From NCBI GenBank assembly GCA_016201905.1, contig JACQBQ010000024.1:52919-116918 (forward strand): 64,000 nucleotides of DNA, in the 5' to 3' direction. Source of the stretch: Candidatus Melainabacteria bacterium. Its GTDB lineage: Bacteria > Cyanobacteriota > Vampirovibrionia > 2-02-FULL-35-15. Within the stretch, counting starts at the first letter, position 1. Each line of letters begins with the position of its first letter. A program made the translations under genes and the position numbers. The notes beneath the pieces are model-generated. The model was not told the DNA's origin, ran no database searches, and saw nothing but the letters and a program-made list of their open reading frames with translations. Shown here one piece after another: positions 1,529 through 58,640 of the stretch.

Positions 1529-2152
1529 TTAAGACAAAGAAACAGGCACTAAACCCCTAATCGATTTTTTTTGTTTAATTAAATCCCTGATTTGACTACT
1601 TGAGATATTGATAGGTTTTGTGTGAACCAATGACCATTTGAGATTTTTAATCTTTGGAGCTTTTATATTTTTTGAAGGCCTTGGCAACACAAGAAATGTA
1701 ACCAGCTTAGCAAGCTGGATTGGTTTATTCCATGTATTTAATTTCTCAAATTCATCAGCGCCGATTAAGAAATATAGAATTATTTTGTCATTGCGAGCCA
1801 AAGGCGAAGCAAGCCTGATCATTTTGCGTGAATTCAATTGGGATTGCTTCGTCGTCCGCCCAATGTGGACTCCTTGCAATGACAGTATTGTATCAATCGT
1901 ATATGCTGGTTTTCTTTTTTTAATTTCAATGTCTAAAACCTTAAAATATTTTCTCCCTTTAATTGCTCTTTTTACAAGTTCGTATCTAAATTGTGCAGGA
2001 AATAATTTTTGCCTTGATTTATGTGGTGGAATACCACATGGAATAAAATAAACACAAGACAATTTATATTCTTTGCGCGCAGCTTCTGCCATTTTTAGAT
2101 GTCCAACGTGTATTGGATTAAATGTGCCACCGAAGATTCCGATTCGTTTCAT
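1529..2152 (-). CDS. nadD: Nicotinate-nucleotide adenylyltransferase carrying an in-frame insertion of a palindromic repeat element; start placed at MKRIGIFGGTFNPIHVGH
   Basis: GIFGGTFNPIHxGH nucleotidyltransferase motif and YTIDT...FLIGADEF match NadD. The track ORF runs to 2251 only because the repeat upstream reads through in frame. About 32 extra residues lie between YTIDT and LYFLIGAD compared with B. subtilis NadD. Confidence 0.85.
   Translation of the reverse strand: MKRIGIFGGTFNPIHVGHLKMAEAARKEYKLSCVYFIPCGIPPHKSRQKLFPAQFRYELVKRAIKGRKYFKVLDIEIKKRKPAYTIDTILSLQGVHIGRTTKQSQLNSRKMIRLASPLARNDKIILYFLIGADEFEKLNTWNKPIQLAKLVTFLVLPRPSKNIKAPKIKNLKWSLVHTKPINISSSQIRDLIKQKKSIRGLVPVSLS
1787..1883. 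mobile_element. Palindromic MITE-like repeat copy A (GTCATTGCGAG...CTTGCAATGAC), inserted in frame inside nadD
   Basis: Terminal inverted repeats and an internal inverted repeat (cgaagcaa.../...ttgcttcg) are shared with copies at 2156, 27795, 31037 and 58552. The nadD ORF stays open across it. Confidence 0.85.
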
Positions 2153-2155
2153 TAT

Positions 2156-2243
2156 GTCATTGCGAGCCAAAGGCGAAGCAATCCCGATCGTTTTGCGTGA
2201 ATTCACTCGGGATTGCTTCGTTGCTAACGCTCCTTGCAATGAC
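2156..2243. mobile_element. Palindromic MITE-like repeat copy B between the proA stop and the nadD start
   Basis: About 90% identical to copy A. It sits 4 bp upstream of the nadD ATG and produces a spurious in-frame N-terminal extension in the ORF track. Confidence 0.85.
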
Positions 2244-2247
2244 ATTA

Positions 2248-3513
2248 TCAATCCCTTATTTGCCCTTCACCAGTTACCAGATATTTATATGTCACTAATT
2301 GTTCTAGAGCAATAGGTCCGCGTGCATGTAATTTTTGTGTAGAGATTCCAATTTCAGAGCCAAAACCAAATTCTTCTCCATCAGTAAAGCGTGTGCTTGC
2401 ATTTACATAGACACATGCTGCATCAATTTCTTCCTGAAATTTCTTTGCATTACTTTTATCTTCTGTAATTATGGACTCTGAGTGTTTTGTTCCATATTTA
2501 TTTATATGTTCTATAGCTTCATCAAGCGAGTTTACCACTTTAACTGCGACCTTTAAATCTAAATATTCTTTATACCAATCATCTTCAGTAGCAGGTCTTG
2601 CACTTTTTATAAATTTTCTGGTTTTATCACAGCCAAAGATTTCTACATTTTTATTCATAAGAGCTAACTCAAGTCCAGGTAAAATATTTTGAGCAATGTT
2701 TTTATGAACTAAAATTGTTTCAATGGCATTGCAAACACCTGGTCTTTGTGTTTTTGCATTGATGGCTATATCCACTGCTATAATTTCTTTTGCACTTTCA
2801 TCTATGAATAAATGACAGGTGCCACCGCCTGCCCCAATTACCGGGATTTTTGAATGCTTTAAAACAAAATCTTTTAATTCTTCTCCGCCACGCGGAATTA
2901 CAAGATCTACATATTCTTTTGATTCAAGTATTTTTATAGTTTCATTCCGTTCTTTATTTGCAATGAACTGAACTATACTTAAGTCCAATGAGCTCTTTTC
3001 TAGAGCTTTGTAAATTACATCCACAATAGCCTGATTTGAATGCGTGGCATGCTGACTGCCGCGTAAAACTATTGCATTACCTGATTTAATGGCTAGAGAA
3101 GCTGCATCAGTAGTAACATTTGGTCTTGCCTCATAAATAACACATATTACGCCAAGAGGAACAGAAATCTTTTTTATATCCATTCCCTTTGAATGTTTCC
3201 AGGCAGCTAAAACTTTACCAATAGGATCTTTTTGAGCGATGACTTTTTGAATACTATCAGCCATGCTTTGCAATCTTTTTTCATTTAATAAAAGCCTGTC
3301 TAATAGAGCATTTGAGAGGTTGTTTTTCTTTCCTTCTTCAATATCTTTTTTATTTGCTGCTAAGATGATATCTTTTGATTTAATTAATTCACTGCTTATA
3401 AGTTCAAGTGCTTTATTTCTTTCATCGGATGCAGATTTTGCTAGTTTTCTTGAGGCAATCTTAGCAGCTTTGAGTTGGCTTATGGTATCTTTCAATGCAG
3501 TTTGAGAATTCAT
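2248..3513 (-). CDS. proA: Glutamate-5-semialdehyde dehydrogenase (gamma-glutamyl phosphate reductase)
   Basis: 421 aa. VIYEARPNVT, IPRGG, NAKTQRPGVCNAxETxLVHKNIA and YVNASTRFTDG align closely with E. coli ProA. The proA-nadD adjacency is common in bacteria. Confidence 0.93.
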   Translation of the reverse strand: MNSQTALKDTISQLKAAKIASRKLAKSASDERNKALELISSELIKSKDIILAANKKDIEEGKKNNLSNALLDRLLLNEKRLQSMADSIQKVIAQKDPIGKVLAAWKHSKGMDIKKISVPLGVICVIYEARPNVTTDAASLAIKSGNAIVLRGSQHATHSNQAIVDVIYKALEKSSLDLSIVQFIANKERNETIKILESKEYVDLVIPRGGEELKDFVLKHSKIPVIGAGGGTCHLFIDESAKEIIAVDIAINAKTQRPGVCNAIETILVHKNIAQNILPGLELALMNKNVEIFGCDKTRKFIKSARPATEDDWYKEYLDLKVAVKVVNSLDEAIEHINKYGTKHSESIITEDKSNAKKFQEEIDAACVYVNASTRFTDGEEFGFGSEIGISTQKLHARGPIALEQLVTYKYLVTGEGQIRD

Positions 3514-3558
3514 ATGAACATTATATCTGTAGAGGCAAGGTAACCTTGCTTTGTAGTT

Positions 3559-5202
3559 CTACAATTTATAAATATTGATGAGTGGTCCACCTCTTTCCCT
3601 CTGCCAAAGTGTTTGTAACGGAGAGTATAAATCTTCAACGATAGATGAGTCTACTTTTTTTTCTAATTCCAAGAGGTAAGGATTAAAAGTAATGAATGGT
3701 TTTAATTTAAGGAGCCTTTTATAGTATTTCTTTTCAAGTTTGTGTCCTGGTTCTCTTAAAATCATCTGTGCATCTAAGCTGTTAACAATAACATAGTCAA
3801 CTTTTTTCCTTAAAATCCTAAACCAATCTTTATTTTCTAAAAGTTTCAAGCTAACATAAAACCTTTGTTTATCAACTAGTGAATCCGGGTCCACACCAAT
3901 ATTTTTTAAACTATTCTTGTCATATGGAGCAAATCCTTTGGTTTGTATACTATTCTTATCCCAGACGATCTTTACATCTCCATGAGCATTTTCATTTACC
4001 CAGTCAGTTGCAATAACTCTTGTATCCGACAAACTAATTATTTTATTGTATTTAAATACATACTTAAGCGGAATATAAAATGCAAAAATAAGCAAAACTA
4101 TAAATAAAAACTTTTTATCCCTTTTAAAAGACAGCGAATTAAAAAACATGCCAGATGCAAGACACATATAAGGCAAAAGCAATACTGCATATCCAGAATA
4201 GCTTAGATGAAAAAGTCCTAAAACTGCAAAATAAAAAACGGGTAGTGAAAATAATATTGACAATAAGTTTAAATCATAGTCATTTTTTCTGTATAAGAAA
4301 AAATAAAAAGCACTAATCCAAACTACTGGACCAACTCCAGGGATTAGAAAATTAAATAAATAAAGAAGGTATGAGCTATAGCGATAATCATAATATCCAT
4401 TTATATAACTGGTCGTTAAATATCTAATAAACTCAAGAAAATTAATTATAAGTTGTGGATTAAAAAGCAAAAAAGAAAGTAAAAAACTTCCAAGAAGAAA
4501 CTTAAACTTAGAAAAATCTTTTTTAACTACTTGAACTAGTAAAACAGGGATAATACTTAAAGAGCCTATACAGTTAGTGAACGCACTAAATAGTGCACAT
4601 ACTGTGCTAGAAAAGAGATTTAGATTTTTATTTAAATAAGATTTAAGTATAAATAAAACTGAAAGTAAAGAAAAGAAAGTCATTACACTAAATGGCAAAA
4701 ATATTTGAGAAAATCTTACATGTAATAATGAAACTGCTAAAAATCCACTTGCAAGCAATCCTGTTAGTAGACTGAAAATTGATCCTATAAAATACAGAAC
4801 GATTACTGATCCAACTCCAAACAAAATACTTATAAGCCTAAGAGGAACATAAAATGCACCAGGGTTTACTTCAAGTGTATTTAAAAGGTTATTTATATCT
4901 ATCGTTCCTGAAGTAAAAAAAACCACCAAAGCATTTAAATAAAAATAAAGCGGAGAAGATTCAAAACTATTAAAGCTTATTAGGTGCTTAATTGTAGACA
5001 AGATCCCTAACAGGTTTCTTGATTCATCTGGATTTAATGCATATGGCAATCCATTATAAATACCTCGAGATCTTAAATAAAAAGAAACTATAATTATAAA
5101 GAAAAAAAGCAGATTTTTTTTGCTGGCAGCTTTTTCTAAGGCAGGTTGCTCCTTAACTTGATCTTGTTTTTTTATTTTTTGTAGTACTAAGTTTTCTGGC
5201 AT
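3559..5202 (-). CDS. Polytopic membrane glycosyltransferase of the PMT/ArnT-like (GT39/GT83) family
   Basis: 547 aa with many hydrophobic helices. The N-terminal loop has an YxLNPDESRN motif resembling the DE motif of ArnT/PMT-type transferases. Confidence 0.55.
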   Translation of the reverse strand: MPENLVLQKIKKQDQVKEQPALEKAASKKNLLFFFIIIVSFYLRSRGIYNGLPYALNPDESRNLLGILSTIKHLISFNSFESSPLYFYLNALVVFFTSGTIDINNLLNTLEVNPGAFYVPLRLISILFGVGSVIVLYFIGSIFSLLTGLLASGFLAVSLLHVRFSQIFLPFSVMTFFSLLSVLFILKSYLNKNLNLFSSTVCALFSAFTNCIGSLSIIPVLLVQVVKKDFSKFKFLLGSFLLSFLLFNPQLIINFLEFIRYLTTSYINGYYDYRYSSYLLYLFNFLIPGVGPVVWISAFYFFLYRKNDYDLNLLSILFSLPVFYFAVLGLFHLSYSGYAVLLLPYMCLASGMFFNSLSFKRDKKFLFIVLLIFAFYIPLKYVFKYNKIISLSDTRVIATDWVNENAHGDVKIVWDKNSIQTKGFAPYDKNSLKNIGVDPDSLVDKQRFYVSLKLLENKDWFRILRKKVDYVIVNSLDAQMILREPGHKLEKKYYKRLLKLKPFITFNPYLLELEKKVDSSIVEDLYSPLQTLWQRERGGPLINIYKL

Positions 5203-5792
5203 TCATCTTTTACAAATTGTTGTTCTTCTTGTGCATATTCTTTAACATTTTTTACTTTTTCTTTTATTTTGTCGTCTGGTATTTTATCCAAGGAGCTACT
5301 CAGAACGTCAATTGCATCCGAATAAAGCTTTAGTGCATATGGACAGTTTGGCTGCTCAGCACCATCTAGGTGGTTTCCACCTTCAGCATATTTTTGGAAA
5401 GCTTCAACTACTTTTTGGTATATAGGAACTTCAGGACAAGTACATGTTTTTGTAATGCCTTTTATTGTAAGCCCAGCATCGTTACAGGCTTTAATAGCTT
5501 TAACCCATTCATCTTCTTCTATGGAGCCATATGCTTTTTCTACAGCATCTCTAGCTGGTTTTGCACAAGCACATTCCGGGGCTTTTGGTACCTCTGGAGC
5601 TTTCATTACCTCTTGAGCTTTTGTTGCCCCTGGAGCTTTTGGTACTTTTTTCTCCTGGAGATTAGGTTCTTTTTCTACTGCTTTTACTGTGTCTTTTGGT
5701 TTTAGAGCATCTTGAGCTAATGAAACACTGCTATTTGTAATTACCGAGATTAAACCTATTATAAAAAGTATTTTTCTCATTATAGATGTCAT
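5187..5792 (-). CDS. Secreted Lys/Ala/Pro-rich Cys-containing hypothetical protein
   Basis: N-terminal signal-peptide-like segment (IIGLISVITNSSVSLAQD). Repeated KAPEVPKAPE motifs and several Cys pairs. No recognisable family. Confidence 0.5.
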   Translation of the reverse strand: MTSIMRKILFIIGLISVITNSSVSLAQDALKPKDTVKAVEKEPNLQEKKVPKAPGATKAQEVMKAPEVPKAPECACAKPARDAVEKAYGSIEEDEWVKAIKACNDAGLTIKGITKTCTCPEVPIYQKVVEAFQKYAEGGNHLDGAEQPNCPYALKLYSDAIDVLSSSLDKIPDDKIKEKVKNVKEYAQEEQQFVKDECQKT

Positions 5793-7045: not shown

Positions 7046-7088
7046 GTCATTGCGAGGAGTCTTGAAGAGACGACGAAGCAATCTTCCA
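7046..7088. mobile_element. Truncated half-copy C of the palindromic MITE-like repeat (left TIR plus first internal arm only)
   Basis: acGTCATTGCGAGgagtcttgaagagacgacgaagcaatc matches the left half of the other copies. The right TIR is absent. Confidence 0.7.
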
Positions 7089-7230
7089 ATAGTTTTAAAA
7101 GTAATAGCTTGTTATATAGGTCTTTCCATTCTTTAATTCTTTTGACCAAATCATTAGTAACACCTGTGTAAAGAACAGTTTTAGCTTTACTTGTGAGAAT
7201 TACGACTTTTTTACTTCTTAAACAAACTTA
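7089..7230 (-). pseudogene. GIY-YIG nuclease family small protein remnant with no canonical start, whose C-terminal part is replaced by repeat copy C
   Basis: The minus-strand translation VVILTSKAKTVLYTGVTNDLVKRIKEWK matches the GIY-YIG motif (YxYxL...LYxGxTxxLxxRxxxH). No ATG, GTG or TTG lies between the upstream stop and the motif. The frame runs straight into the repeat. Confidence 0.5.
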
Positions 7231-7937
7231 GTGCTCTCACTAATCAGCGCACCTATATTTTCTAGATATTTTTTTAATTCCATTCCTCTTACTTCTTTTT
7301 GTGTTTCAGTATCAAATGCATAGGCTCCTCTCAAATCGGCTCCTTTCAAGTTGGCTCCTTCTAAGTTGGTTCCTACCAAGTAGGCTCCGCTCAAGTTGGC
7401 TTCGTATAAGTGGGCTTCTATCAAGTTGGCTCCTCTCAAGTTGGTTCTTTCCAGGTTGGCTCCCCTTAAAGGATATTGAGCTTGATTAGAACCTAATGAG
7501 CTACTGATAGCCACTAATAATCTATCTAGGTTTATAAAATTATTATTTATTTTAATGTTTAAAGAAGTAAAATCTATTCCGGATAAATTAAGTGGTTCAT
7601 TTCCTTTTTGTGTTCTAAATGCATTTTCTATTTTATCTAGTACCATTAGTATCTCTGCATTGTTTGCATATTTATTTTTTATTCCAAATGGATCTAGAAA
7701 CCCTGTTTGTACCAAGGTTTTTTCTGCTCTTATTCTTCCTATAGCTTCTTGTGGAAGAATTACTCTTTTTACTTCTTCTAATACTTTATTTGCGTCATCT
7801 GTATTATTTACTTTTGTTCTAACTATTGAATTGAAATAAGAAAAAAACTCCTGACCTAGGCCAGGAGATAAGGTTTCTAAAGCTTTAAATGCTTTTTGTA
7901 CTTTCTCTATACCTGCTACATTTTGTACTAATGCCAT
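7218..7937 (-). CDS. Pentapeptide-repeat protein
   Basis: The C-terminal 70 aa are tandem A(N/D)LxG pentapeptides (RGANLERTNLRGANLIEAHLYEANLSGAYLVGTNLEGANLKGADLRGAY). Visible in DNA as repeated ggctcc(t/g)ctcaagttgg units at 7320-7470. Confidence 0.85.
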   Translation of the reverse strand: MALVQNVAGIEKVQKAFKALETLSPGLGQEFFSYFNSIVRTKVNNTDDANKVLEEVKRVILPQEAIGRIRAEKTLVQTGFLDPFGIKNKYANNAEILMVLDKIENAFRTQKGNEPLNLSGIDFTSLNIKINNNFINLDRLLVAISSSLGSNQAQYPLRGANLERTNLRGANLIEAHLYEANLSGAYLVGTNLEGANLKGADLRGAYAFDTETQKEVRGMELKKYLENIGALISESTKFV

Positions 7938-20605: not shown

Positions 20606-23353
20606 TTAGCGACTTAATGGAATCTCTATATCCTTTGAAAAGGACATTCCTTGAGTTATCTGTGTAACAGTTAAGCTTATTTTTTCCGGGAAACCATTAG
20701 GAAATAATTCTGCTATCTCTTTTATTTTTTCTAGTTTTTTTATAGGCAGTACAATTAAATGTACCTTTTTACTTGAATCCTTTGCTGTCAAAGGAAATTT
20801 ATTTGGTGCTATAACTAAAGCCTTTTTAGGTAAATCAGTAGTTATATTAATCAAACTATCTTCCAGACTAGTGTTAAAAAGATTTTGATCAAAACTAACA
20901 ATTAAAAAACTTTTGGCAGGTTTTTTCTGTAAAAGTGTTAATCCACTTAAAGCTGGCCCTTCTATAGCTAAAGAAAAACTTACAGGCTCTCCAGATGAAG
21001 TATTGCCACCTGTAGAACTACTTGTTGAAGAGGAACTTACAGTATTTTTATTATTTGAAGCATCAATGCCTGCATTGCTTGGAGGTTCAATTTGTTTTCT
21101 TGTAAGCGTCAGTGAATCACCGACTATAGGTAATCTAAAAATCCCTCCGCCATTTGTAGCTGCATAAACAGCTGATCCATCAGGTGTAACTGTAAGTCCT
21201 CTTACCTCACGAATTAAAAGTCCATTACTAAATGATTGCCATGTCTGGCCATCATCACCTGAAACATAAAAACCAGTAACATTTCCAGCTGCATAAACTT
21301 GATGTGTGCTAGATATCGGATTAAAAATAATTGAAACAATATTGTCATTGAGATGATTTTCATTACTTAATACAGGCTGCCAGGTACTACCTGCATCACT
21401 TGATCTAAAAATTCGCCCGTCAGAACTTCCTACAAGAATAACTTGAGTGTTTGCTGGACAAACTGAGACTGAATGAAAGGATTTTACATCACCCAGTCCA
21501 TTGTTTATTTGTGTCCATGTTTCTCCACCATCTGTACTTTTAATTATGCCTGAATCATTTGTAGCAGCATAGACAATTTTTTCATCTGTTGGACTAACAT
21601 CACAAGACCAAGTATTTTTAAATCCTGATATTCCTGTTTGCTTATTTATCCACGTCATGCCACCATCTGTAGACTTAAACACTCCCCATCCAATTGAATC
21701 TACAGCATCATGAAAAAGAGATTTTTTAACACATGTAGCAAATGCAGTACTTGGGTTTGATTTTGCCCATTTTATGTCTGTAAAAACAATCTCACCATCT
21801 AAGCCAGTACTTGACGGATGAAGTGCATAATCTTCAGGGAAAAGCATGAAAACAGTTCTCCAGCTCATGCCACCATCAGTGCTAAGAAAGATTGAACTCA
21901 TAGCATTTTGGCTATCACCAAGAAGAACTTTACTACTATCAGCAGGGTGTGGCACAATTGCTTGAAGCTCATCTAATGCTACATCTCCAAGACCAACAGG
22001 CAGCCAGTTTACTCCTTTGTCTTCACTTAAAAAGACACCTGATCTTGAAGTAGCAAAAACTTTATTACCATCTGGGCTTACAGCTACATCTCTTGTTTCA
22101 GAACCAGAATACCCGAAAGCATTTGTAACCCATGTTTTCCCGCCATCTGTAGTTTTAAAAACTCCGCCTATATAACTGTCTACATATACTGTATTTTCAT
22201 CATTTGGATCAACTGCAATATCAATTGGATGGCCAGGATTAGAACCAAGTGGTCCAAACCCAGTCTCTGTCCAAGTCATACCTCCATCCTTTGATTTAAA
22301 AAATATTCCAAATGCACCAGCATAAATTACATTTGGATTTGTAGGGCTTATGCCAAGTGCTGAGTATAGCTGTGGGGAGCCATTGCTACGCTGTCTCTTT
22401 ACCTCAATCCATGTCATTCCACTATCACGAGTTACAATAATTGCTCCATCCTGATTTTCTATATCAGTATCAAACTGTGGAATCATTCCTGTTGTTCCCC
22501 AAATAGTATTTGGATTCATTGGATCAAATTTTATATTTGTAACATAAAGATTTCTTATTCCATTATTTATCTGGGCCCAAGTGCTACCACTATCTGTACT
22601 TTTATACACACCTTCAAGTTTTTCTAGCTGCTGTCTATCAAAAAATCCGCTTGCTACATAAGTAGTATTTGGATTATTTGGATCAATAATTACATCCTTA
22701 AATAAATTCCCCCCACTTAAAACCTGTGCCCAGTTTTCCCCGCCATCAGTTGTTCTATAAAGGATTCCATGTGTTCTTTGAAAGGCCCCCATAAAAGGGC
22801 CAATTTCTTCTAAGTCGCCCGATGCAAAAACTGTATTAGAATCTCCTGGCTTTACTGCAAGCCCTCTAATTTCAACCTCTTCACCGCTTGGTAAGCCATT
22901 GTCTTTATGCTGCCATGTTGCCCCGCCATCAGTTGACAGAAAAACACCCATTGCATTTTTTACACCACACCATATTCGCTGTGGATTATTTGGATCAATA
23001 GTAGTAACAAAAACAGGGATTGCATCTCCTGATTCACCTGCACGCGAATCAATCCCTTGAGTGCTTTCATCCCACGTTAATCCGCGATCACCTGAAATAT
23101 GAATACCAGCAAACGAATCAGTAACAATAATTTTATTGGAATCATTAGGACTAAACCTTATTGTGTAACCTTGCCCACCAAATGGACCATTTAATTTCTG
23201 CCATGGCATTAAAAGGACTTGGTACTTATCAATCAATTCATCTGGTGTTGCAAAATCAGAATATTCTTTAGAGATAATTTTATTCTGTAGAAAGAAAAAT
23301 ATTAAGATCACAAACAAAAAGATAAGAGAAAATCTAAGCTTATAAGTTTTCAT
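20606..23353 (-). CDS. Secreted BNR/Asp-box repeat protein (multi-bladed beta-propeller; Ycf48/sortilin-like)
   Basis: 915 aa with a signal peptide. At least 12 SxDxGxTW Asp-box repeats (STDGGATW, TTDGGENW, STDSGSTW and others), then a Ser/Thr-rich linker and a C-terminal domain. Confidence 0.8.
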   Translation of the reverse strand: MKTYKLRFSLIFLFVILIFFFLQNKIISKEYSDFATPDELIDKYQVLLMPWQKLNGPFGGQGYTIRFSPNDSNKIIVTDSFAGIHISGDRGLTWDESTQGIDSRAGESGDAIPVFVTTIDPNNPQRIWCGVKNAMGVFLSTDGGATWQHKDNGLPSGEEVEIRGLAVKPGDSNTVFASGDLEEIGPFMGAFQRTHGILYRTTDGGENWAQVLSGGNLFKDVIIDPNNPNTTYVASGFFDRQQLEKLEGVYKSTDSGSTWAQINNGIRNLYVTNIKFDPMNPNTIWGTTGMIPQFDTDIENQDGAIIVTRDSGMTWIEVKRQRSNGSPQLYSALGISPTNPNVIYAGAFGIFFKSKDGGMTWTETGFGPLGSNPGHPIDIAVDPNDENTVYVDSYIGGVFKTTDGGKTWVTNAFGYSGSETRDVAVSPDGNKVFATSRSGVFLSEDKGVNWLPVGLGDVALDELQAIVPHPADSSKVLLGDSQNAMSSIFLSTDGGMSWRTVFMLFPEDYALHPSSTGLDGEIVFTDIKWAKSNPSTAFATCVKKSLFHDAVDSIGWGVFKSTDGGMTWINKQTGISGFKNTWSCDVSPTDEKIVYAATNDSGIIKSTDGGETWTQINNGLGDVKSFHSVSVCPANTQVILVGSSDGRIFRSSDAGSTWQPVLSNENHLNDNIVSIIFNPISSTHQVYAAGNVTGFYVSGDDGQTWQSFSNGLLIREVRGLTVTPDGSAVYAATNGGGIFRLPIVGDSLTLTRKQIEPPSNAGIDASNNKNTVSSSSTSSSTGGNTSSGEPVSFSLAIEGPALSGLTLLQKKPAKSFLIVSFDQNLFNTSLEDSLINITTDLPKKALVIAPNKFPLTAKDSSKKVHLIVLPIKKLEKIKEIAELFPNGFPEKISLTVTQITQGMSFSKDIEIPLSR

Positions 23354-27794: not shown

Positions 27795-27884
27795 GTCATT
27801 GCGAGAAGCGTTAGCGACGAAGCAATCTCAACAACGTGAGTGAGATTGCCACGTCGTCCGCCTAGGCGGACTTCTCGCAATGAC
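27795..27884. mobile_element. Palindromic MITE-like repeat copy D (hom-aspS intergenic)
   Basis: ACGTCATTGCGAG...CTCGCAATGACGT termini with an internal inverted repeat gacgaagcaatctca/tgagattgccacgtcgtc. Confidence 0.85.
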
Positions 27885-30204: not shown

Positions 30205-30633
30205 TTGTGTCAAAGGCACGTTAGGAAATTGAAAAAAAACAAATACAAAAAATATAAACATTGCCTCATCTTAATTGCGCATGGAAGTAAAGAGCTCCAA
30301 TGGCGCAGGCCTTTTGAAAGACTCATCGGTAAATTAAAAAGAGAGCTGCCAGGAGATTACATTTCCATTGCTTACATAGAGTCACTAAAGCCATCGCTTA
30401 GTGAGGTAATGAAGAACTTATCTAATAAAAAAAGTGCAAACTACATAAAATTATTACCTCTTTTTATGGCAGCTGGCTCTCATATAAATCGTGATATAAA
30501 GGAACTTGTTTCTAGAGCTAGAAAGAAATCACCAAAATTAAAAATTGAAGTTCTGCCACCAATTGGCGAACATCCTAAAATAAGCTCAGTAATTTGTGAA
30601 ATAATAAAAGGGTATTTAAATCATGTTAGCTAA
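30205..30633 (+). CDS. CbiX/SirB-like small sirohydrochlorin chelatase domain protein
   Basis: 142 aa. [10 protein letters not shown]...[14 protein letters not shown] resembles the short CbiX(S) chelatase fold, which has a His near the N terminus. Confidence 0.5.
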
Positions 30634-31504
30634 AAGAATTATTCCTTGTTTAGACGTAAAAGATAGGCGTGTCGTCAAAGGCACAAAGTTTCTAGATTTA
30701 AAAGATGCTGGTGATCCTGTAGAGCTTGCAAAGTTCTATAACAAAGAAGGAGCTGATGAGCTTTGTTTTTTAGATATTACAGCAAGTCACGAAGAAAGAA
30801 AAACACTTATTGAAATGGTAGAAGCTGTTGCTCGTGAGGTTTTTATACCATTTACTGTCGGTGGCGGTATTAGCACTACTGAACAAATGAAGAGTATCTT
30901 ACGCGCTGGGGCAGATAAAATCACTATTAATACTGCTGCTATAAAAAATCCAAGACTGATTACAGAAGGAGCCAAAATATTTGGCTCACAGTGTATTGTC
31001 CTAGCTATCGATGCAAAACAGGAGTCCTACGTTAGCACGTCATTGCGAGGAGAGGAGCGACCCGCTTCGCCCGCAAAGCGAGGCGAGCGAAGCAATCTCG
31101 AAAACGCTTATGATATTGCCACGCCTTCTTTGAAGGCTCGCAATGACGTAAAGCGATGGACTGTTTATATAAAAGGTGGGAGAGAAAATACTAATATAGA
31201 TGCTATTGAATGGGCTAAAAAAGCTGTTACCTTAGGCGCTGGTGAAATATTACTTACCAGCATGGACGCAGATGGTACAAAAGCAGGTTATGATATTGAG
31301 CTTACAAAAAAAATCGTTGAAGCTGTAAATGTTCCAGTAATAGCTTCTGGTGGTGCTGGAAAAATTGATGATGTAGTTAATGTATTTAAAAAAACAAACT
31401 GTGATGCTGCACTGTTAGCTTCAATACTCCACTTTAAAGATATTTCAATAAAAGAAATAAAAAATAAATTAAAAGAAGAGTTGGTTTCTGTAAGACTAAA
31501 CTAA
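30623..31504 (+). CDS. hisF: Imidazole glycerol phosphate synthase cyclase subunit HisF, carrying an in-frame insertion of a palindromic repeat element
   Basis: [41 protein letters not shown] and IASGGAG match HisF. About 40 extra residues ([44 protein letters not shown]) lie between AIDAK and the W-containing strand. Confidence 0.92.
31037..31149. mobile_element. Palindromic MITE-like repeat copy F inserted in frame inside hisF
   Basis: ACGTCATTGCGAGG...GCTCGCAATGACGT termini and a GC-rich internal palindrome. The hisF ORF stays open across it. Confidence 0.85.
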
Positions 31505-44454: not shown

Positions 44455-44527
<73 letters not shown>

Positions 44528-44666
44528 AATTCTTCCACAAGAATGTGAGTGATTAATGGTGTGCTAATAAAGCGAACCTTGTTCCAATTTATTTGGACAA
44601 GGTGAGCGGTATTTGCAAGGCTGGTTCGAGGAGCAACGTCACCGCAGAACCAGCTGTTAGAGATAC

Positions 44667-44718
44667 AGCAGAGGACTGAAAATCCTTGTGTCGGCAGTTC
44701 AATTCTGCCTCGCGGCAA
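44667..44718 (+). repeat. 52-bp direct repeat of the tRNA-Phe 3' end (anticodon stem to acceptor end), preceded by a degenerate copy of the 5' half
   Basis: AGCAGAGGACTGAAAATCCTTGTGTCGGCAGTTCAATTCTGCCTCGCGGCAA is identical to 44477-44528. The upstream 25 nt resemble the tRNA 5' half at about 70%. Confidence 0.85.
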
Positions 44719-44748
44719 GTTTTATGTTAATAAAAAGTTTTGATAGTT

Positions 44749-53290: not shown

Positions 53291-53337
53291 AGTCTAACAA
53301 TTACATGCCACTGTAAGCAAAGCAGTGACACCTTATT

Positions 53338-54924: not shown

Positions 54925-54936
54925 TTAGCAGTTCAT

Positions 54937-55365
54937 ATGGAAATAAAGTTTAAAATGATAGTTGCTCTAGGAATTATTCTTGTTCTTGGTTTTGGATTTG
55001 TTCAAGGTTCTTTTGCAGACACTAATCCTTTATTTGTAACTATTACTGCTAGAGAGTCATGTTCTACATGTAAAAAGTTTGAGCCAACACTTCAAGAGTT
55101 ACAGAATGAATATGATGGAAGAATAACCTTTGTAACTCTGGATTTATCATCTAAAGATTCAATTGAAGAAGCTAAGCAGACCGCAGAAGAAGCCGGGATC
55201 ACCAAGTTTTTCGAAGAAAATAAGGGAGTAGTTCCAAAAGTAGGTATTTTATGTCCTGGTGGAACAAAAACAGAAAATACTTTTATCGGTGAGACAAGAA
55301 AAGAAATTTTTGAAGAAGCACTAGATAAAGCTTTATTAGATACATCTACTGTTTGTAGCTTATAA
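54937..55365 (+). CDS. Secreted thioredoxin-fold protein (variant motif SCSTCK), paralog of the upstream gene
   Basis: 142 aa. PLFVTITARESCSTCKKFEP...ITFVTLD aligns with the upstream paralog. The first Cys of the CxxC is replaced by Ser. Confidence 0.6.
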   Translation: MEIKFKMIVALGIILVLGFGFVQGSFADTNPLFVTITARESCSTCKKFEPTLQELQNEYDGRITFVTLDLSSKDSIEEAKQTAEEAGITKFFEENKGVVPKVGILCPGGTKTENTFIGETRKEIFEEALDKALLDTSTVCSL

Positions 55366-55375
55366 AAACACAAAA

Positions 55376-55401
55376 GGCGAGAATGATCATTCTCGCCTTT
55401 T
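55376..55401. terminator. Bidirectional rho-independent terminator GGCGAGAATGATCATTCTCGCC-TTTT between convergent genes
   Basis: A perfect 9-bp stem with AAAA on the left and TTTT on the right, lying between the Trx-like gene (+) and the SWIB gene (-). Confidence 0.75.
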
Positions 55402-55423
55402 GAAAGTTTCTTTTTATCGGGTT

Positions 55424-55699
55424 TTATTTAACGTGTTGAGCAACTAACTTAGTCATCTCAAACATGCTGACCTGTTTCTTGCCATTAAAAATTGGTTTTA
55501 AAACTTCATCAGCATCAATGTTTCTTCTGTTCTTTGCATTTTGAAGTTTATTTTTTTTGATGTAAGCCCAGAGTCTCTTTGTAATCTCAGTTCTTGGAAG
55601 AGGTTTTTCTCCAACAACTTGAGCTAATGCATCATCCGGCTGAAGTGGTTTCATGAATGCTGCATTTGGTTTTCTTGAACTTTTTTTCTTAGTAGCCAT
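55424..55699 (-). CDS. SWIB/MDM2 domain protein
   Basis: 91 aa. A basic N terminus is followed by LSPELAxxxG-like ...TEITKRLWAYIKKNKLQNAKNRRNIDADEVLKPIFNGKKQVSMFEMTKLVAQHV, matching the SWIB/MDM2 fold signature. Confidence 0.75.
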   Translation of the reverse strand: MATKKKSSRKPNAAFMKPLQPDDALAQVVGEKPLPRTEITKRLWAYIKKNKLQNAKNRRNIDADEVLKPIFNGKKQVSMFEMTKLVAQHVK

Positions 55700-55814
55700 A
55701 TTTATATTTCTCCTTCTATGATCCGCTATTCCTGCTATGAGATTATATCCTAATACGGGGGCTTGAGAGTAGTCGTAAAAGTCTCAGTCCTGTATTACTT
55801 AATCAATAATAGTA

Positions 55815-55852
55815 CATAGGGAGGCTGGGTTGTGCAACCCAGCCTCCCTATG
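55815..55852. promoter_or_regulatory. 38-nt perfect GC-rich palindrome CATAGGGAGGCTGGGTTG-tg-CAACCCAGCCTCCCTATG in a 650-bp noncoding region
   Basis: Read directly. Followed at 55865-55897 by a second nested inverted repeat, CACATAGTTATTTTGATAACTGTGAACTATGTG. Confidence 0.4.
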
Positions 55853-56346
55853 AAATAACCATTCACATAGTTATTTTGATAACTGTGAACTATGTGCCTT
55901 TATATAGCTATTTACAGTGTTACAGGACTTGGCTTTATCTGTATGTAGCCATGTATGAGCCATAAATGCAATCGTAAATAAAACAAAAATTAGCCTGGGC
56001 AACATTGTGATTATGGTGTGGATATACCCAGATCTAAAAGAAATTAAAACAAAAGTAATAAAAAACTTTGAAGAGAGCCAGGTGGCTTTTTAGTACATAA
56101 AGAAAAAGAAAATATTTTTTCATCCTCTGTAGTTACTATGCTTGCTTAGCCAAATCTTTTGTAATAGCGCTATTAAAGTTAACAAACTCTTAAAATATAG
56201 CTTTAAATGCTAAATTGAAAGCTATAACTTTAATTTTATTTAATGAAATAGCCTTGGTAATTTAAACTTTTCATAACCATTCATATGTAATCTGTCCATA
56301 GCTTAGTTAAGGTGAAAGATTATTTACAAATTATTCAGAGGTTGAA

Positions 56347-56832
56347 ATGTCAAATCCGCTATATGGTATTAAGAAAAAAGCACTTTTAAGTCAGCAACAA
56401 GAAGTTAGAGCTTATCAGGATGTCATTTCATCACAAAAGCTCGATCTGGCTTTTCTCCGACAATTTTTTAAGACTTTTCGTGGCCCTGACGATGCTGATG
56501 GACATTATAGTTCTGCAGATTATCAAAAAGCACTAGGTGTATATTCCAAAGTACACCCTGATGATCCTAACACTCCGGTAAATGAGCATGAACAAGCATT
56601 AATAAAAATCGCAGAGGACTTTTTCAAAACCAGCTGGAGTAATCTTACAGGGGGTACAGTTGATGACCAATTGTTAAACACCAAATCAGCTGAGATACAA
56701 AACAAAATCAGCGAGTTAGAAGGGAAACGAATGACGTTTGACACCGAAGCTGATGATATTGATCGTGAGATAAAGGATATTGATATTCTTATACAAACAG
56801 AAAGTAATAATGAAAGCAACGGCACTGTATAA
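56347..56832 (+). CDS. Hypothetical protein
   Basis: 161-aa acidic ORF; no motif. Confidence 0.4.
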   Translation: MSNPLYGIKKKALLSQQQEVRAYQDVISSQKLDLAFLRQFFKTFRGPDDADGHYSSADYQKALGVYSKVHPDDPNTPVNEHEQALIKIAEDFFKTSWSNLTGGTVDDQLLNTKSAEIQNKISELEGKRMTFDTEADDIDREIKDIDILIQTESNNESNGTV

Positions 56833-56995
56833 TTTTTTATATTGAGCGAAGCGTAAAACCCCGAGGCTTGCCTCAAGGGATATAAGCGAGCCAATTCAAA
56901 CTGACTTCCTAATTCTGACGACTGGTGACGAAGTCAAAAATTGGTGTAATACCCTGTTGCTTGCGGTAGGGATAGCCAATTTTAAGGAAGTCAGT

Positions 56996-58543
56996 TTATT
57001 TTAAAAAGTTTATCATTGTATGAAAAGCGGCTTTTGTTTTTTCTTTTATACTGGACTTAAAAACTATTCCTATCAAATCCGAATATGACCTTGCTTTGCC
57101 TTTATATGGATACCACCAGAAACTTTTTGGGTGTAGCTTTGGAATAAAGCCAAGATCAATGCTTATGTGTTTGGTTCTTACAAAATCATAAATTGCAGAA
57201 CCACCATAACCACTGTCCTTATAACCCTGCCATGGACAGGCTGGATGTGCCTGTAAAAACAAAGAATCATTAACCCAGACTGTGCCGCAGTTTAATTTAT
57301 TTGCAATATTTTTTACATTTCCTGTTTCACCTGTCCAGATGCTACTTGCAAGACCATATCTTGTGTCATTAGCTAGTCTTATTGCTTCTTCAATGCTCTC
57401 AAACTTCATAATAGGAATAACAGGTCCAAAAGTTTCTTCTGTCATTATTTTCATTGAATGATTTACATTGCTTAAAACTGTAGGCTCAAAGAAAAAGCCT
57501 GAGCCTGGAATTCTTTTGCCGCCCGTATGGAGTCTGGCACCTTTATTTAAGGCATCTTTTATATGCTCTTCTATTTTTTCTACTTGCTCCTTGTCTATGA
57601 GTGGCCCTACATCAATTTCGTCATCTATTCCATTGCCTATTTTTAACTCTTTTACAAGACTTGTAATTTTATCTATAAAATCATTATAGATTTCTGATTC
57701 CACATAAACCCTTTCAATAGATGCACAGGCTTGGCCACAATTTGATATTGCTCCCCATAAAACTCCTTCACATGCATAGTCTAAGTTTGTGTTTTTGAAA
57801 ACTATTGCAGGATCTTTTCCGCCAAGCTCAAGGCTTACAGGCAGTAGTTTTTTTGCGCAAGATTCAGCAATTTTCTTGCCGATTTCTACAGACCCTGTAA
57901 AAATAACTTTGTCAATTCCTGAGCTGATTAATACCTCTGCAGCTTCACTACCACCATATACAATGTTTGCAACACCTTGTGGCAGGGCTGCTTCAAGCAA
58001 GATCTCATAAATTAATTTTCCAACTAGCGATACTTTGCTTGACGGTTTAAAAATAAAAGTATTGCCAGCCAGCAATGTTTTTGTAATTGCTGACATAGGT
58101 AAATAAAAAGGATAGTTCCATGGCTCTATAATAGCCATTACACCGTACGGCTCATAAGAAAGAAAACTTTTCTTAGTAGGATAAAGTTTGCCAAGAGAAA
58201 TACTTTTTTCATTCAATAACTCATGGCCTTTTTTAATAAAATATTCCATGATCTGTAAACATGAAGCAATTTCAGTCAGATATGACTCAGAGAGTGGCTT
58301 ACCAGTGTTTTTTGTAATTATTTCGGCTATCTTATCTTTGTCTTTAATTATAAGTTCATATATTTTTTTTAAGTAATCAATCCTTTTATCTACGGTCATA
58401 CTACTCCATAGTAAAAAAGACTCTTTTGCTCTTTGAATTATTTCTTTAATCTCAGTTTCGCTTGTAGCTTTAGCAGTAAAGATTTCCTCACCTGTTGCAG
58501 GGTTAGTAACTTTAATTAAGTTTTCTTTTATTGTAGCTGGCAT
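56996..58543 (-). CDS. Aldehyde dehydrogenase family protein (start placed at MPATIKE; the ORF reads into the repeat up to 58558)
   Basis: ELGGKDPAIVF, the catalytic Cys in NCGQAC and the EETFGPV motif. The five N-terminal residues in the track (MTCKA) are encoded by repeat copy E. Confidence 0.88.
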   Translation of the reverse strand: MPATIKENLIKVTNPATGEEIFTAKATSETEIKEIIQRAKESFLLWSSMTVDKRIDYLKKIYELIIKDKDKIAEIITKNTGKPLSESYLTEIASCLQIMEYFIKKGHELLNEKSISLGKLYPTKKSFLSYEPYGVMAIIEPWNYPFYLPMSAITKTLLAGNTFIFKPSSKVSLVGKLIYEILLEAALPQGVANIVYGGSEAAEVLISSGIDKVIFTGSVEIGKKIAESCAKKLLPVSLELGGKDPAIVFKNTNLDYACEGVLWGAISNCGQACASIERVYVESEIYNDFIDKITSLVKELKIGNGIDDEIDVGPLIDKEQVEKIEEHIKDALNKGARLHTGGKRIPGSGFFFEPTVLSNVNHSMKIMTEETFGPVIPIMKFESIEEAIRLANDTRYGLASSIWTGETGNVKNIANKLNCGTVWVNDSLFLQAHPACPWQGYKDSGYGGSAIYDFVRTKHISIDLGFIPKLHPKSFWWYPYKGKARSYSDLIGIVFKSSIKEKTKAAFHTMINFLK

Positions 58544-58551
58544 GGCTTTAC

Positions 58552-58640
58552 ACGTCATTGCGAGGAGGTACGATGTACCGACGTGGCAATCTCTAAAACG
58601 TTATTGAGATTGCTTCGTCGCTAACGCTCCTCGCAATGAC
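58552..58640. mobile_element. Palindromic MITE-like repeat copy E abutting the 5' end of the aldehyde dehydrogenase gene
   Basis: ACGTCATTGCGAGG...CCTCGCAATGAC termini. Internal palindrome GTACGATGTACCGACGTGGCAATCTC.../...GAGATTGCTTCGTCG. Confidence 0.85.

What the first reader, a model, noticed from the sequence alone, without database searches (positions are those of the whole stretch)
1787..58640. Family of about 90-115 bp palindromic MITE-like elements, two of them inserted in frame into essential genes (RPE-like behaviour)
There are six copies: 1787-1883, 2156-2243, 7046-7088 (half-copy), 27795-27884, 31037-31149 and 58552-58640. They share termini ACGTCATTGCGAG...CTCGCAATGACGT and a GC-rich internal inverted repeat (gacgaagcaatc/gattgcttcgtc). 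Their GC content is well above the genomic background. Two copies lie inside open reading frames without breaking them, in nadD and in hisF. The others sit exactly at gene boundaries. Elements that insert in frame and add a peptide segment to housekeeping proteins are best known from Rickettsia (RPEs). The gene content here (hisF, pgi, lexA, multiheme cytochrome) does not look like Rickettsia. This may therefore be an independent or undescribed family with the same behaviour. Six copies in 64 kb implies hundreds genome-wide.
Basis: partly seen in the sequence, partly recalled or inferred. Interest (0 to 1): 0.85.

Follow-up and report, generated by a model that had tools for sequence, protein, structure and literature searches.

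The report
Palindromic repeats partnered with GIY-YIG nuclease
The six repeats are real members of a palindromic DNA family found in at least eleven bacterial phyla, and its gene-carrying form encodes a tiny Slx1-like GIY-YIG nuclease, a candidate for the mobilising enzyme that these "CGTC-tagged" repeats were reported to lack.

Summary
The window, from a Candidatus Melainabacteria MAG, has five full copies and one half copy of an 87-109 bp palindrome, YGTCATTGCGAG...CTCGCAATGACR. Two full copies are in frame in nadD and hisF. The closest relatives of both genes lack the inserts.

The element is not genome-specific, and it is not a classical MITE, because it makes no target-site duplication. 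Exact-terminus copies occur in at least 11 phyla. Its grammar matches the CGTC-tagged REP superfamily, which includes Rickettsia RPE-4 and RPE-6.

The new result concerns the partner gene. In 75 of 80 metagenomic loci encoding one 95-aa GIY-YIG subfamily, the same termini lie within 150 bp of the ORF. In the simplest layout the ORF sits in the central loop of the palindrome, giving a unit of about 400 bp. A second GIY-YIG subfamily is flanked by canonical CGTC-1 repeats in all 6 independent loci checked. The nuclease is UPF0213/Slx1-like by profile and by fold.

The window's half copy is the right end of a decayed ORF-carrying unit. A GIY-YIG remnant lies next to it.

The association is shown. 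Mobilisation by the nuclease is inferred. I found no paper describing this link.

The parts
1787..1883 (.). Full ORF-less copy (97 bp; 99 bp with its T...A tags), in frame inside nadD. It encodes (L)SLQGVHIGRTTKQSQLNSRKMIRLASPLARND.
   Evidence: The alignment to PDB NadD 1kam breaks at residues 93-124. The closest nadD representatives lack the segment. The copy is present in independent assemblies L214 and L215.
2156..2243 (.). Full ORF-less copy (88 bp) between the proA stop (2248) and the real nadD start codon (2150-2152). ORF callers read through it and extend nadD by 33 codons.
   Evidence: It is 92% identical to the copy at 1787 over 71 nt. Logan assemblies end inside it.
7046..7088 (-). 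Half copy. It is the right end (GATTGCTTCGTC - side hairpin - CTCGCAATGACG, read on the minus strand) of a decayed ORF-carrying unit.
   Evidence: Its position, about 30 nt after the ...EWKDLYNKL motif, matches the layout of intact units.
7100..7212 (-). Remnant of a GIY-YIG nuclease gene (..VVILTSKAKTVLYTGVTNDLVKRIK|EWKDLYNKL). The N-terminal ~30 residues are joined to the C-terminal motif, with about 55 codons deleted in between. The start codon and the left element end are missing.
   Evidence: Pfam GIY-YIG E=8e-4. tblastn hit. hhalign against the family profile: probability 97%, E=1.2e-10.
27795..27884 (.). Full ORF-less copy (90 bp) between the homoserine dehydrogenase stop (27783) and the aspS start (27914). 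It carries a side hairpin, GTCCGCC-TAG-GCGGAC.
31039..31147 (.). Full ORF-less copy (109 bp; 111 bp with its C...G tags), in frame inside hisF. It encodes (T)[36 protein letters not shown](V) in the variable loop after IDAK.
   Evidence: Homologs at 84% identity lack it. The empty site is seen in L213.
58554..58640 (.). Full ORF-less copy (87 bp) between the divergent aldehyde dehydrogenase and purB genes. It is the inverse-orientation counterpart of the copy at 27795 (62 nt, 90% complementary).
   Evidence: Logan contig L216 starts inside it.

Best explanation
The six loci belong to a pan-bacterial family of YGTC-tagged palindromic repeats.

Anatomy of a 90-bp copy: two inverted half-units (YGTC-ATTGCGAG-x-GAAGCAAT-CY) surround a variable loop. 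The whole can fold into one long interrupted hairpin or cruciform.

Shown:
- The same two half-units also bracket a ~95-aa stand-alone GIY-YIG nuclease gene of the UPF0213/Slx1-like type. This gives a unit of about 400 bp with the ORF in the central loop.
- The ~90-bp copies are the ORF-less form of that unit.
- The window holds five ORF-less copies and one decayed ORF-carrying copy. The decayed copy is a GIY-YIG remnant with an internal deletion plus the right end of the element.

Inferred mechanism: the nuclease recognises the conserved blocks in an extruded hairpin or cruciform. It nicks at the unpaired YGTC/GACR tags at the base of the stem. It acts in trans on ORF-less copies, as RAYT is thought to do for REPINs. 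A hydrolytic GIY-YIG enzyme cannot perform strand transfer. Copying into new sites would therefore depend on host replication or repair. No target-site duplication results.

Copies that land in essential genes survive only when three conditions hold: the insert keeps the reading frame, it contains no stop codon, and it falls in a surface loop. The nadD and hisF inserts are 99 and 111 bp with their tags, both multiples of three.
For: Family:
- An exact-terminus scan returned at least 120 loci from at least 11 phyla. Host GC ranged from 31 to 70%.
- The conserved blocks are invariant. The loop-proximal stem pairs covary.
- Flanking bases: position -1 is C in 68% and T in 27% of copies. Position +1 is G in 74% and A in 23%.

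Partner gene:
- In 80 GIY-YIG loci, the terminus motif lies within 150 bp upstream of the ORF in 69 and within 150 bp downstream in 62. Both sides carry it in 56.
- Motif density is 9.6 per kb within 150 bp of the ORF and 0.13 per kb beyond 1 kb. Chance expectation is 0.016 per kb.
- About 19 simple loci show end - 15-30 nt - ATG...stop - 0-30 nt - inverted end.

Specificity:
- Subfamily 1 has the ATTGCGAG type nearby in 75 of 80 loci and a CGTC-1-like type in 2 of 80.
- Subfamily 2 has the CGTC-1-like type in 6 of 6 independent loci (Omnitrophota, CPR x2, Chloroflexi x2, KSB1) and the ATTGCGAG type in 1 of 6.

Converse: only 1 of 120 genomic loci and 1 of 111 viral loci chosen for an ORF-less copy carry the gene. 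In both, the gene is flanked by termini.

Module in different contexts: L137, L144 and L147 share only a ~460-bp block (one repeat copy plus the ORF) at 85-88% identity. Their flanks are unrelated.

Nuclease:
- Pfam PF01541 scores 55-71 bits.
- Y7, Y18, R28, H32 and E66 are invariant across both subfamilies.
- The best PDB profile hit is 1zg2, a UPF0213 protein.
- The AlphaFold model has pLDDT 95. Its best structural matches are 1zg2, then nine Slx1 chains.

Window:
- GIY-YIG remnant next to the half copy.
- Inserts absent from relatives.
Against: - No cleavage or transposition has been demonstrated for any member.
- GIY-YIG enzymes are hydrolytic and form no covalent DNA intermediate. An insertion mechanism therefore has to be borrowed from the host and is speculative.
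- No intact GIY-YIG gene was found in the 82 kb of this genome that I could read.
- Several ORF-carrying copies sit at orthologous sites in related taxa. This fits a vertically kept, possibly domesticated gene as well as it fits an active one.
- The 80 subfamily-1 loci are probably all from Bacteroidota. Outside that phylum, the pairing of the ATTGCGAG type with a GIY-YIG gene rests on the window's remnant and on one Patescibacteria locus (L211).
- Each half-unit has only 5 bp of self-complementarity, so this type is not a canonical REP hairpin.
Confidence: 0.6

Rival explanations
1. The GIY-YIG gene is a minimal homing-endonuclease-like parasite of the repeats. The palindromic doublets exist and spread by some other means. 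The ORF merely invades their central loops, using the multicopy repeat as a safe homing site. It plays no part in spreading the ORF-less copies.
For: - The ORF always lies in the loop.
- GIY-YIG domains are classic homing endonucleases, and weak NCBIfam hits point to the group I intron endonuclease family.
- The ORF-carrying module occurs in unrelated contexts.
- Di Nocera et al. found no transposase for CGTC repeats.
Against: - The loops of ORF-less copies are highly variable in sequence and length. There is no conserved homing site where the ORF sits.
- The protein is a bare 95-aa catalytic domain with no DNA-binding extension.
- Protein subfamily and repeat-end type co-vary. This implies that the protein reads the ends, not the loop.
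- The window's remnant shows an ORF-carrying copy decaying by internal deletion towards an ORF-less form.
Confidence: 0.2
2. The repeats are classical MITEs, meaning internally deleted insertion sequences moved by a DDE or other conventional transposase encoded elsewhere.
For: Terminal inverted repeats, small size, multiple copies and a preference for gene boundaries.
Against: - There is no target-site duplication in 132 of 141 copies.
- The only ORF found between the same ends is a GIY-YIG nuclease.
- A published census found 97.4% of MITEs to be specific within genus boundaries (abstract read). This family keeps identical 11-nt termini across at least 11 phyla.
- Di Nocera et al. found only fortuitous links between CGTC repeats and transposase genes.
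Confidence: 0.05
3. The repeats are host-serving structural elements, such as terminators, mRNA stabilisers or protein-binding sites. They are maintained by selection and currently immobile. The GIY-YIG gene is a domesticated housekeeping nuclease that manages the hairpins or cruciforms they form.
For: - Three copies lie exactly at gene boundaries.
- The folds are very stable.
- ORF-carrying copies are kept at orthologous sites in related taxa.
- Slx1-type nucleases process branched DNA (fold match).
Against: - The inserts in nadD and hisF are absent from close relatives and cannot be terminators.
- Copies are present on 111 viral contigs.
- The ORF-carrying module occurs in unrelated contexts.
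- The window's GIY-YIG copy is a pseudogene.
Confidence: 0.15

Closest known systems
CGTC-tagged REP superfamily (Di Nocera, De Gregorio, Rocco 2013, PMC3733652; includes Rickettsia RPE-4 and RPE-6 and Neisseria dRS3)
   Same: - Unpaired CGTC/TGTC tag at the outer end
- Stem starting with AT
- ...AATCC(A) tail
- Head-to-head dimers
- In-frame intragenic copies in housekeeping genes
- Predominance in Alphaproteobacteria, with members in other phyla
   Different: - Each half-unit here has only 5 bp of self-complementarity (ATTGC/GCAAT), not an 8-9 bp stem with a 4-5 nt loop. The two conserved blocks pair with the opposite half.
- Its peptides (VIAS, SLRG, CHCE, LAMT) are absent from that paper's list of intragenic repeats.
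- That paper reported no dedicated enzyme. Here a GIY-YIG gene lies between the units.
REPIN-RAYT systems (Bertels and Rainey 2011; Nunvar et al. 2010)
   Same: - Doublets of inverted REP units with a spacer, forming a long hairpin
- Many ORF-less copies per genome and a rare partner gene flanked by the same units
- No target-site duplication
- Partner copies sometimes kept at orthologous sites
   Different: - The tag is YGTC, not GTAG.
- The partner is a 95-aa GIY-YIG hydrolytic nuclease, not an IS200/IS605-type HUH tyrosine transposase. The chemistry must therefore differ.
- The termini are conserved across phyla.
Rickettsia palindromic elements (RPE-1 and others)
   Same: Palindromic repeats that insert in frame into essential genes and add a peptide segment. 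The present family also occurs in Rickettsiales and Candidatus Tisiphia.
   Different: - It is not restricted to Rickettsia.
- The element peptides hit no Pfam or NCBIfam model at E up to 10.
- Most copies here are intergenic.
Bacterial MITEs derived from DDE insertion sequences (for example Correia/NEMIS, MITEAba12)
   Same: Small size, terminal inverted repeats, multiple copies, and a longer ORF-carrying relative with the same ends.
   Different: - No target-site duplication
- The ORF is a GIY-YIG nuclease
- Extreme phylogenetic breadth
Slx1 / UPF0213 stand-alone GIY-YIG nucleases (PDB 1zg2; Dunin-Horkawicz et al. 2006, PMC1564403)
   Same: The partner protein is a member by profile and by fold. 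The catalytic Tyr, Tyr, Arg, His and Glu are conserved.
   Different: The prokaryotic members were described as vertically inherited proteins. I found no report of an assigned function or of a link to repeats.
GIY-YIG homing endonucleases (I-TevI, Seg proteins)
   Same: A GIY-YIG catalytic domain encoded inside a selfish DNA segment.
   Different: - No DNA-binding domain
- Not in an intron or a phage gene cluster
- Flanked by inverted hairpin repeats
- Far more ORF-less than ORF-carrying copies

Membership tests
CGTC-tagged REP superfamily | Unpaired terminal tetranucleotide CGTC (variants TGTC, CCTC) | tested here: met
   With the invariant GTC, position -1 is C in 96 and T in 38 of 141 copies. 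The mirror position +1 is G in 104 and A in 33.
CGTC-tagged REP superfamily | Each unit is a self-contained hairpin with an 8-9 bp stem starting with AT, a 4-5 nt loop and a CCA-like tail | tested here: not met
   The AT start and the ...AATCC tail are present. However, the half-unit ATTGCGAG-x-GAAGCAAT is self-complementary over only 5 bp. The consensus fold pairs outer block with outer block and inner block with inner block across the two halves.
CGTC-tagged REP superfamily | Mostly head-to-head dimers, with in-frame intragenic copies | tested here: met
   All full copies are tag-outward doublets. Two of the six window copies are in frame in genes. Up to 22 of 141 copies lie in frames open on both sides.
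CGTC-tagged REP superfamily | Belongs to one of the four published families, CGTC-1 to CGTC-4 | not testable with these tools
   The consensus sequences are in a figure that is not held. The family's peptides are absent from the supplementary list of intragenic repeats.
REPIN-RAYT | Two inverted REP units with a spacer that fold into one hairpin | tested here: met
REPIN-RAYT | GTAG tag, and a partner gene that is an IS200/IS605-like HUH tyrosine transposase | tested here: not met
   The tag is YGTC. The flanked gene is a Pfam PF01541 GIY-YIG nuclease.
REPIN-RAYT | Partner gene is single-copy and vertically inherited | tested here: inconclusive
   Some ORF-carrying copies are at orthologous sites. 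Others are in unrelated contexts. One genome has two paralogs, P0214 and P0234. No whole-genome census was possible.
Rickettsia palindromic elements | Sequence or peptide similarity to a described RPE family | tested here: not met
   Eight element-encoded peptides gave no Pfam or NCBIfam hit at E up to 10. I did not confirm which RPE models those libraries hold.
Rickettsia palindromic elements | In-frame insertion into protein-coding genes without disrupting them | tested here: met
   nadD and hisF.
MITE (DDE-transposon derivative) | Target-site duplication flanking the terminal inverted repeats | tested here: not met
   132 of 141 copies have no flanking direct repeat. The remaining short matches are consistent with chance.
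MITE (DDE-transposon derivative) | A parent IS with the same ends that encodes a transposase | tested here: not met
   The only ORF found between the same ends is the 95-aa GIY-YIG nuclease.
UPF0213 / Slx1-like GIY-YIG nucleases (partner protein) | GIY-YIG catalytic domain with conserved Tyr, Tyr, Arg, His/Tyr and Glu | tested here: met
   PF01541 scores 55-71 bits against a cut-off of 22.6. Y7, Y18, R28, H32 and E66 are invariant in 34 sequences.
UPF0213 / Slx1-like GIY-YIG nucleases (partner protein) | Closest structures are UPF0213 and Slx1, rather than UvrC or I-TevI | tested here: met
   The profile hits 1zg2 at E=4.7e-4. I-TevI and UvrC score E of about 0.5. Foldseek ranks 1zg2 first, then nine Slx1 chains, then UvrC.
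UPF0213 / Slx1-like GIY-YIG nucleases (partner protein) | Structure-selective cleavage of branched or hairpin DNA | not testable with these tools
   This requires biochemistry.

The most novel reading that the evidence does not exclude
Small Slx1-like GIY-YIG nucleases are the long-missing mobilising enzymes of the whole CGTC-tagged repeat superfamily. That superfamily includes Rickettsia RPE-4 and RPE-6, Neisseria dRS3-type repeats and the ATTGCGAG type seen here. On this reading, the ~400-bp ORF-carrying units are among the smallest autonomous mobile elements known in bacteria. They would use a nuclease class not previously tied to a prokaryotic transposon-like element. They would spread by hairpin or cruciform cleavage followed by host repair, not by strand transfer.
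Probability: 0.4. Interest if true: 0.9.

Novelty: new variant of a known kind. Interest (0 to 1): 0.8.

Why it matters
CGTC-tagged palindromic repeats litter many bacterial genomes and insert into essential genes. Well-known examples are the Rickettsia RPEs. The paper that defined the superfamily concluded that they "apparently lack a dedicated transposase".

The consistent, type-specific nesting of a 95-aa GIY-YIG nuclease gene between two inverted repeat units gives a concrete candidate enzyme. It also gives a simple biochemical test.

The result assigns a plausible role to a very large family of small stand-alone GIY-YIG proteins. Each of two searches returned more than 7,900 relatives.

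It offers an explanation for how the same 11-nt termini persist across phyla.

It flags a widespread annotation artefact: repeat-encoded heads and tails on predicted proteins, and repeat-encoded inserts in housekeeping proteins.

If the nuclease does drive mobility, the chemistry differs from every known bacterial transposition pathway.

Tried and rejected
- Rfam at gathering thresholds, on the window and on 11 related loci: only two tRNA hits.
- Pfam and NCBIfam scans of eight element-encoded peptides, looking for RPE domains: nothing.
- Full-text search for the terminus and inner-block strings: only unrelated primers.
- Searches combining GIY-YIG with REP, REPIN, RAYT, RPE, MITE, inverted repeats, COG2827, UPF0213 and YhbQ: no paper links them.
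- GIY-YIG genes next to ORF-less copies: only 1 of 120 genomic loci and 1 of 111 viral loci. At first this looked like evidence against an association. The reverse test, starting from the gene, showed the association.
- Target-site duplications: none.
- Extending the contig to find an intact GIY-YIG gene or more copies in this genome: 10 kb to the left and 7.9 kb to the right held neither. One look-up found no record.
- Plasmid database: only 3 records carry the alphaproteobacterial consensus, none with an annotated feature.
- Single-sequence PDB search with the nuclease gave only a weak UvrC hit. The profile search was needed.
- The nucleotide-level insertion point in hisF could not be resolved, because the loop itself is not alignable between relatives.

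Full report
**1. The observation**

The terminus ACGTCATTGCGAG, allowing up to 2 mismatches, occurs 10 times in the window. Shuffled sequence gives 0.35 hits.

I built an nhmmer profile from 139 family members, 136 of them from other genomes. It finds the same six loci in the window and nothing else.

The copies are:
- 1787-1883
- 2156-2243
- 7046-7088 (half copy)
- 27795-27884
- 31039-31147
- 58554-58640

They are richer in GC than their surroundings, at 0.49-0.56 against 0.31-0.39. The five full copies fold into long interrupted hairpins of -42 to -50 kcal/mol, with z-scores from -3.8 to -8.8.

Each full copy is modular:
- an invariant outer stem (GTCATTGCGAG / CTCGCAATGAC)
- an inner stem (GAAGCAATCTC / GAGATTGCTTC)
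- a variable loop
- optional side hairpins with unrelated sequences

**2. Gene context in the window**

The copy at 1787 lies inside nadD (ORF 1529..2251, minus strand) and keeps the reading frame. The copy at 31039 does the same in hisF (30623..31504).

The copy at 2156 lies between the proA stop and the real nadD start. ORF callers read through it and extend nadD by 33 codons.

The copy at 27795 lies between hom and aspS. The copy at 58554 lies between the divergent aldehyde dehydrogenase and purB genes.

hisF identifies the source as a Candidatus Melainabacteria MAG, on a contig of 166,939 bp.

The hisF insert is recent:
- The closest hisF homologs are 84% identical and 251-260 aa long. They lack the 37-40 aa insert.
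- The insert sits in a loop of variable length after the IDAK motif.
- The DNA of the closest relative shows an empty site.

The nadD insert is recent as well:
- The alignment to solved NadD structures breaks at residues 93-124.
- The closest database representatives lack the segment.

Both inserts are therefore lineage-specific.

Counted with their one-base tags, the two in-frame copies are 99 and 111 bp, both multiples of three. Two of the three other full copies are not multiples of three. This is what purifying selection on random insertions would leave behind.

Independent short-read assemblies of the same organism contain the nadD copy. They end inside the copies at 2156 and 58554. This is typical of multicopy repeats.

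I read 18 kb of extra flanking sequence and found no further copies. The estimate of hundreds genome-wide remains unverified.

**3. The family is very widespread**

I scanned one genome per species for GTCATTGCGAG-N60-90-CTCGCAATGAC. They come from:
- Alpha-, Beta- and Gammaproteobacteria, with many from Bradyrhizobium and some from Rickettsiales and Candidatus Tisiphia
- Bacteroidota
- Ignavibacteriota
- Patescibacteria
- Planctomycetota
- Chloroflexota
- Desulfobacterota
- Clostridia
- Zixibacteria
- Margulisbacteria
- Melainabacteria of the order Caenarcanales

Host GC ranges from 31 to 70%. The conserved blocks stay the same throughout, while the loops and side hairpins differ.

The consensus fold has an invariant outer stem of 10-12 bp. 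The inner stem has three loop-proximal pairs that covary.

Across 141 copies, the base before GTC is C in 68% and T in 27%. The base after GAC is G in 74% and A in 23%. There is no target-site duplication in 132 of the 141.

Up to 22 of the 141 copies lie in frames that are open for at least 60 codons on both sides. Several of these frames are hundreds of codons long, so intragenic copies occur elsewhere too.

Full copies also occur on 111 IMG/VR viral contigs.

**4. Relation to known repeats**

Di Nocera et al. 2013 (PMC3733652) defined a superfamily of CGTC-tagged REPs with these features:
- an unpaired CGTC or TGTC tag
- a stem starting with AT
- a short loop
- a CCA tail
- mostly head-to-head dimers
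- frequent in-frame intragenic copies

They assigned Rickettsia RPE-4 and RPE-6 and Neisseria dRS3 to it. [quoted passage not shown]

The present family shares the tag, the AT start, the ...AATCC tail, the dimer layout and the in-frame habit. It differs in one respect. Each half is self-complementary over only 5 bp (ATTGC/GCAAT), and the two conserved blocks pair with the opposite half.

Its characteristic peptides are absent from that paper's supplementary list. They also hit no Pfam or NCBIfam model. Rfam has nothing either.

**5. The partner gene**

On the minus strand, the window's half copy follows a 37-residue remnant of a GIY-YIG nuclease gene by about 30 nt. The remnant reads VVILTSKAKTVLYTGVTNDLVKRIK|EWKDLYNKL. 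The evidence for it is:
- Pfam E=8e-4
- hhalign probability 97%, E=1.2e-10, for residues 3-32
- EWKDLYN is the usual C-terminal motif of the family

About 55 codons have been deleted from the middle of the gene.

Among the 120 genomic loci, only one carries such a gene (L099, Lacinutrix venerupis). There it has a full repeat copy just upstream of the ATG. A repeat terminus is fused to its last codons.

I then started from the protein instead. The family is large, with more than 7,900 relatives at E<1e-5. I fetched 80 metagenomic loci that encode it. The results were:
- The terminus motif lies within 150 bp upstream of the ORF in 69 loci, within 150 bp downstream in 62, and on both sides in 56. 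Only four loci have no motif at all, and three of those four show degenerate versions.
- Motif density is 9.6 per kb within 150 bp of the ORF, 2.4 per kb at 151-500 bp and 0.13 per kb beyond 1 kb. Chance expectation is 0.016 per kb.

In about 19 simple loci the layout is (Y)GTCATTGCGAG-gaac-GAAGCAATC, then 15-30 nt, then ATG...stop, then 0-30 nt, then GATTGCTTC-gttc-CTCGCAATGAC.

The ORF occupies the central loop of the same palindrome, giving a unit of about 400 bp. The window's half copy fits this layout as the right end of a decayed unit.

**6. A second subfamily generalises the link**

It returned real proteins at 77-88% identity from Omnitrophota, Chloroflexi, KSB1 and CPR bacteria.

Many predicted proteins in this set carry N-terminal heads such as SFPRKRESRKS, VIPAKAGIQK or CHSRESGNPES. 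Others carry tails such as TDAGFPIKLGMT. These are translations of the canonical CGTC-1 repeat. The same peptides are listed for R. conorii in Di Nocera's supplement.

At the DNA level, all six independent loci I examined share one layout. A YGTC-AT..hairpin..AT-CCAG unit lies upstream, followed by 10-15 nt and the ATG. After the stop come 0-5 nt and a CTGG-AT..hairpin..AT-GACR unit.

The two subfamilies are 44-49% identical to each other. They are type-specific:

| GIY-YIG subfamily | ATTGCGAG-type end nearby | CGTC-1-like end nearby |
|---|---|---|
| 1 | 75 of 80 loci | 2 of 80 loci |
| 2 | 1 of 6 loci | 6 of 6 loci |

Three loci (L137, L144, L147) share only a ~460-bp block, consisting of one repeat copy plus the ORF, at 85-88% identity. 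Their flanks are unrelated. Other ORF-carrying copies sit at orthologous sites in related taxa.

**7. The protein**

It is a bare GIY-YIG domain. Pfam PF01541 scores 55-71 bits against a cut-off of 22.6.

Across both subfamilies Y7, Y18, G20, R28, H32 and E66 are invariant. So are several basic residues.

A family profile finds the UPF0213 protein BH0048 (PDB 1zg2) as its best solved relative. Dunin-Horkawicz et al. 2006 place this protein in the bacterial Slx1 family.

The AlphaFold model has pLDDT 95 and pTM 0.86. Its best structural matches are 1zg2, then nine Slx1 or Slx1-Slx4 chains, including a complex with 5'-flap DNA. UvrC ranks after these.

From established knowledge, Slx1 is a structure-selective nuclease that cuts branched DNA.

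**8. Interpretation**

Shown:
- The repeats and the in-frame inserts are real.
- The family is widespread.
- It has no target-site duplication.
- A Slx1-like GIY-YIG gene is nested between the inverted repeat units, in a type-specific way.
- The window holds a decayed ORF-carrying copy.

Inferred:
- The nuclease recognises the conserved blocks in an extruded hairpin or cruciform.
- It nicks at the tags.
- It acts in trans on ORF-less copies.
- Host replication or repair completes the copying step, because a hydrolytic nuclease cannot transfer strands.

Rivals:
- The gene is a homing-type parasite of pre-existing repeats. The variable loops and the co-variation between protein subfamily and end type argue against this.
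- The repeats are classical DDE MITEs. The absence of target-site duplications and of any such transposase argues against this.
- The system is domesticated and now immobile. Recent inserts in essential genes and the module's occurrence in unrelated contexts argue against this.

**9. Novelty**

The window's element is a new or at least uncatalogued type within a known superfamily. Its in-frame behaviour is already known for that superfamily.

The link to GIY-YIG nucleases was not found in any paper I could search. It addresses the question left open in 2013.

The library I searched is limited to open-access papers and bioRxiv preprints. Prior description elsewhere cannot be excluded.

Noticed in passing
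window 44455-44527 and 44653-44721: A tRNA-Phe(GAA) gene is followed 190 bp downstream by a 97%-identical duplicate of its 3' 58 nt. Rfam scores the duplicate at only 31 bits, and ARAGORN does not call it. This looks like the scar of an integration at the tRNA gene.
   Followed up: partly
window 2153-2251 and 58541-58558: The element terminus ...CGCAATGAC contains an ATG and has open frames. ORF callers therefore extend nadD by 33 repeat-encoded codons. They also place the first ATG of the aldehyde dehydrogenase ORF inside the repeat. Many database GIY-YIG proteins likewise carry repeat-encoded heads or tails.
   Followed up: partly
L138 3320-3560; also L047 2729-2790, L140, L176: Next to GIY-YIG genes, the repeat terminus is often present as short tandem arrays. 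One example is GCTCGCAATGACATTGGAT repeated three times with a 19-bp period. These arrays are interleaved with a second repeat type, GTCATTCCGAAGG...GGAATC.
   Followed up: partly
L211 2390-2500 and 2800-2900 (Patescibacteria): A single GIY-YIG gene is surrounded by three different tagged repeat types: GTCATTGTGAGCGAAGCGAAGCAATC, GTCATTATCGGGCTTGACCCGATAATCCAG and GGATTCCCGCTTTCGCGGGAATGAC.
   Followed up: no
hisF homologs P0051 and P0116 (alignment A2, columns 165-207): Two other hisF homologs carry different, unrelated insertions of about 17 and about 33 aa in the same loop after IDAK. This loop appears to tolerate insertions repeatedly.
   Followed up: no
L214 end, L215 end, L216 start (window 2182 and 58613): Logan short-read assemblies of the same organism (SRR12113409 and SRR12113410) terminate exactly inside two of the repeat copies.
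   Followed up: yes
L218-L328 (IMG/VR contigs): 111 viral or proviral contigs carry full copies of the repeat. One of them (L300) carries a GIY-YIG gene flanked by termini. This is a possible route for transfer between phyla.
   Followed up: partly
window 7318-7469: A 15-bp periodic DNA repeat lies inside a pentapeptide-repeat protein gene (7218..7937, minus strand). This gene is the neighbour immediately upstream of the GIY-YIG remnant.
   Followed up: no
window 21497-22948: Diverged internal repeats of about 36-46 nt at irregular spacing lie inside the 915-aa ORF 20606..23353 (minus strand). They probably reflect a protein with repeated domains.
   Followed up: no
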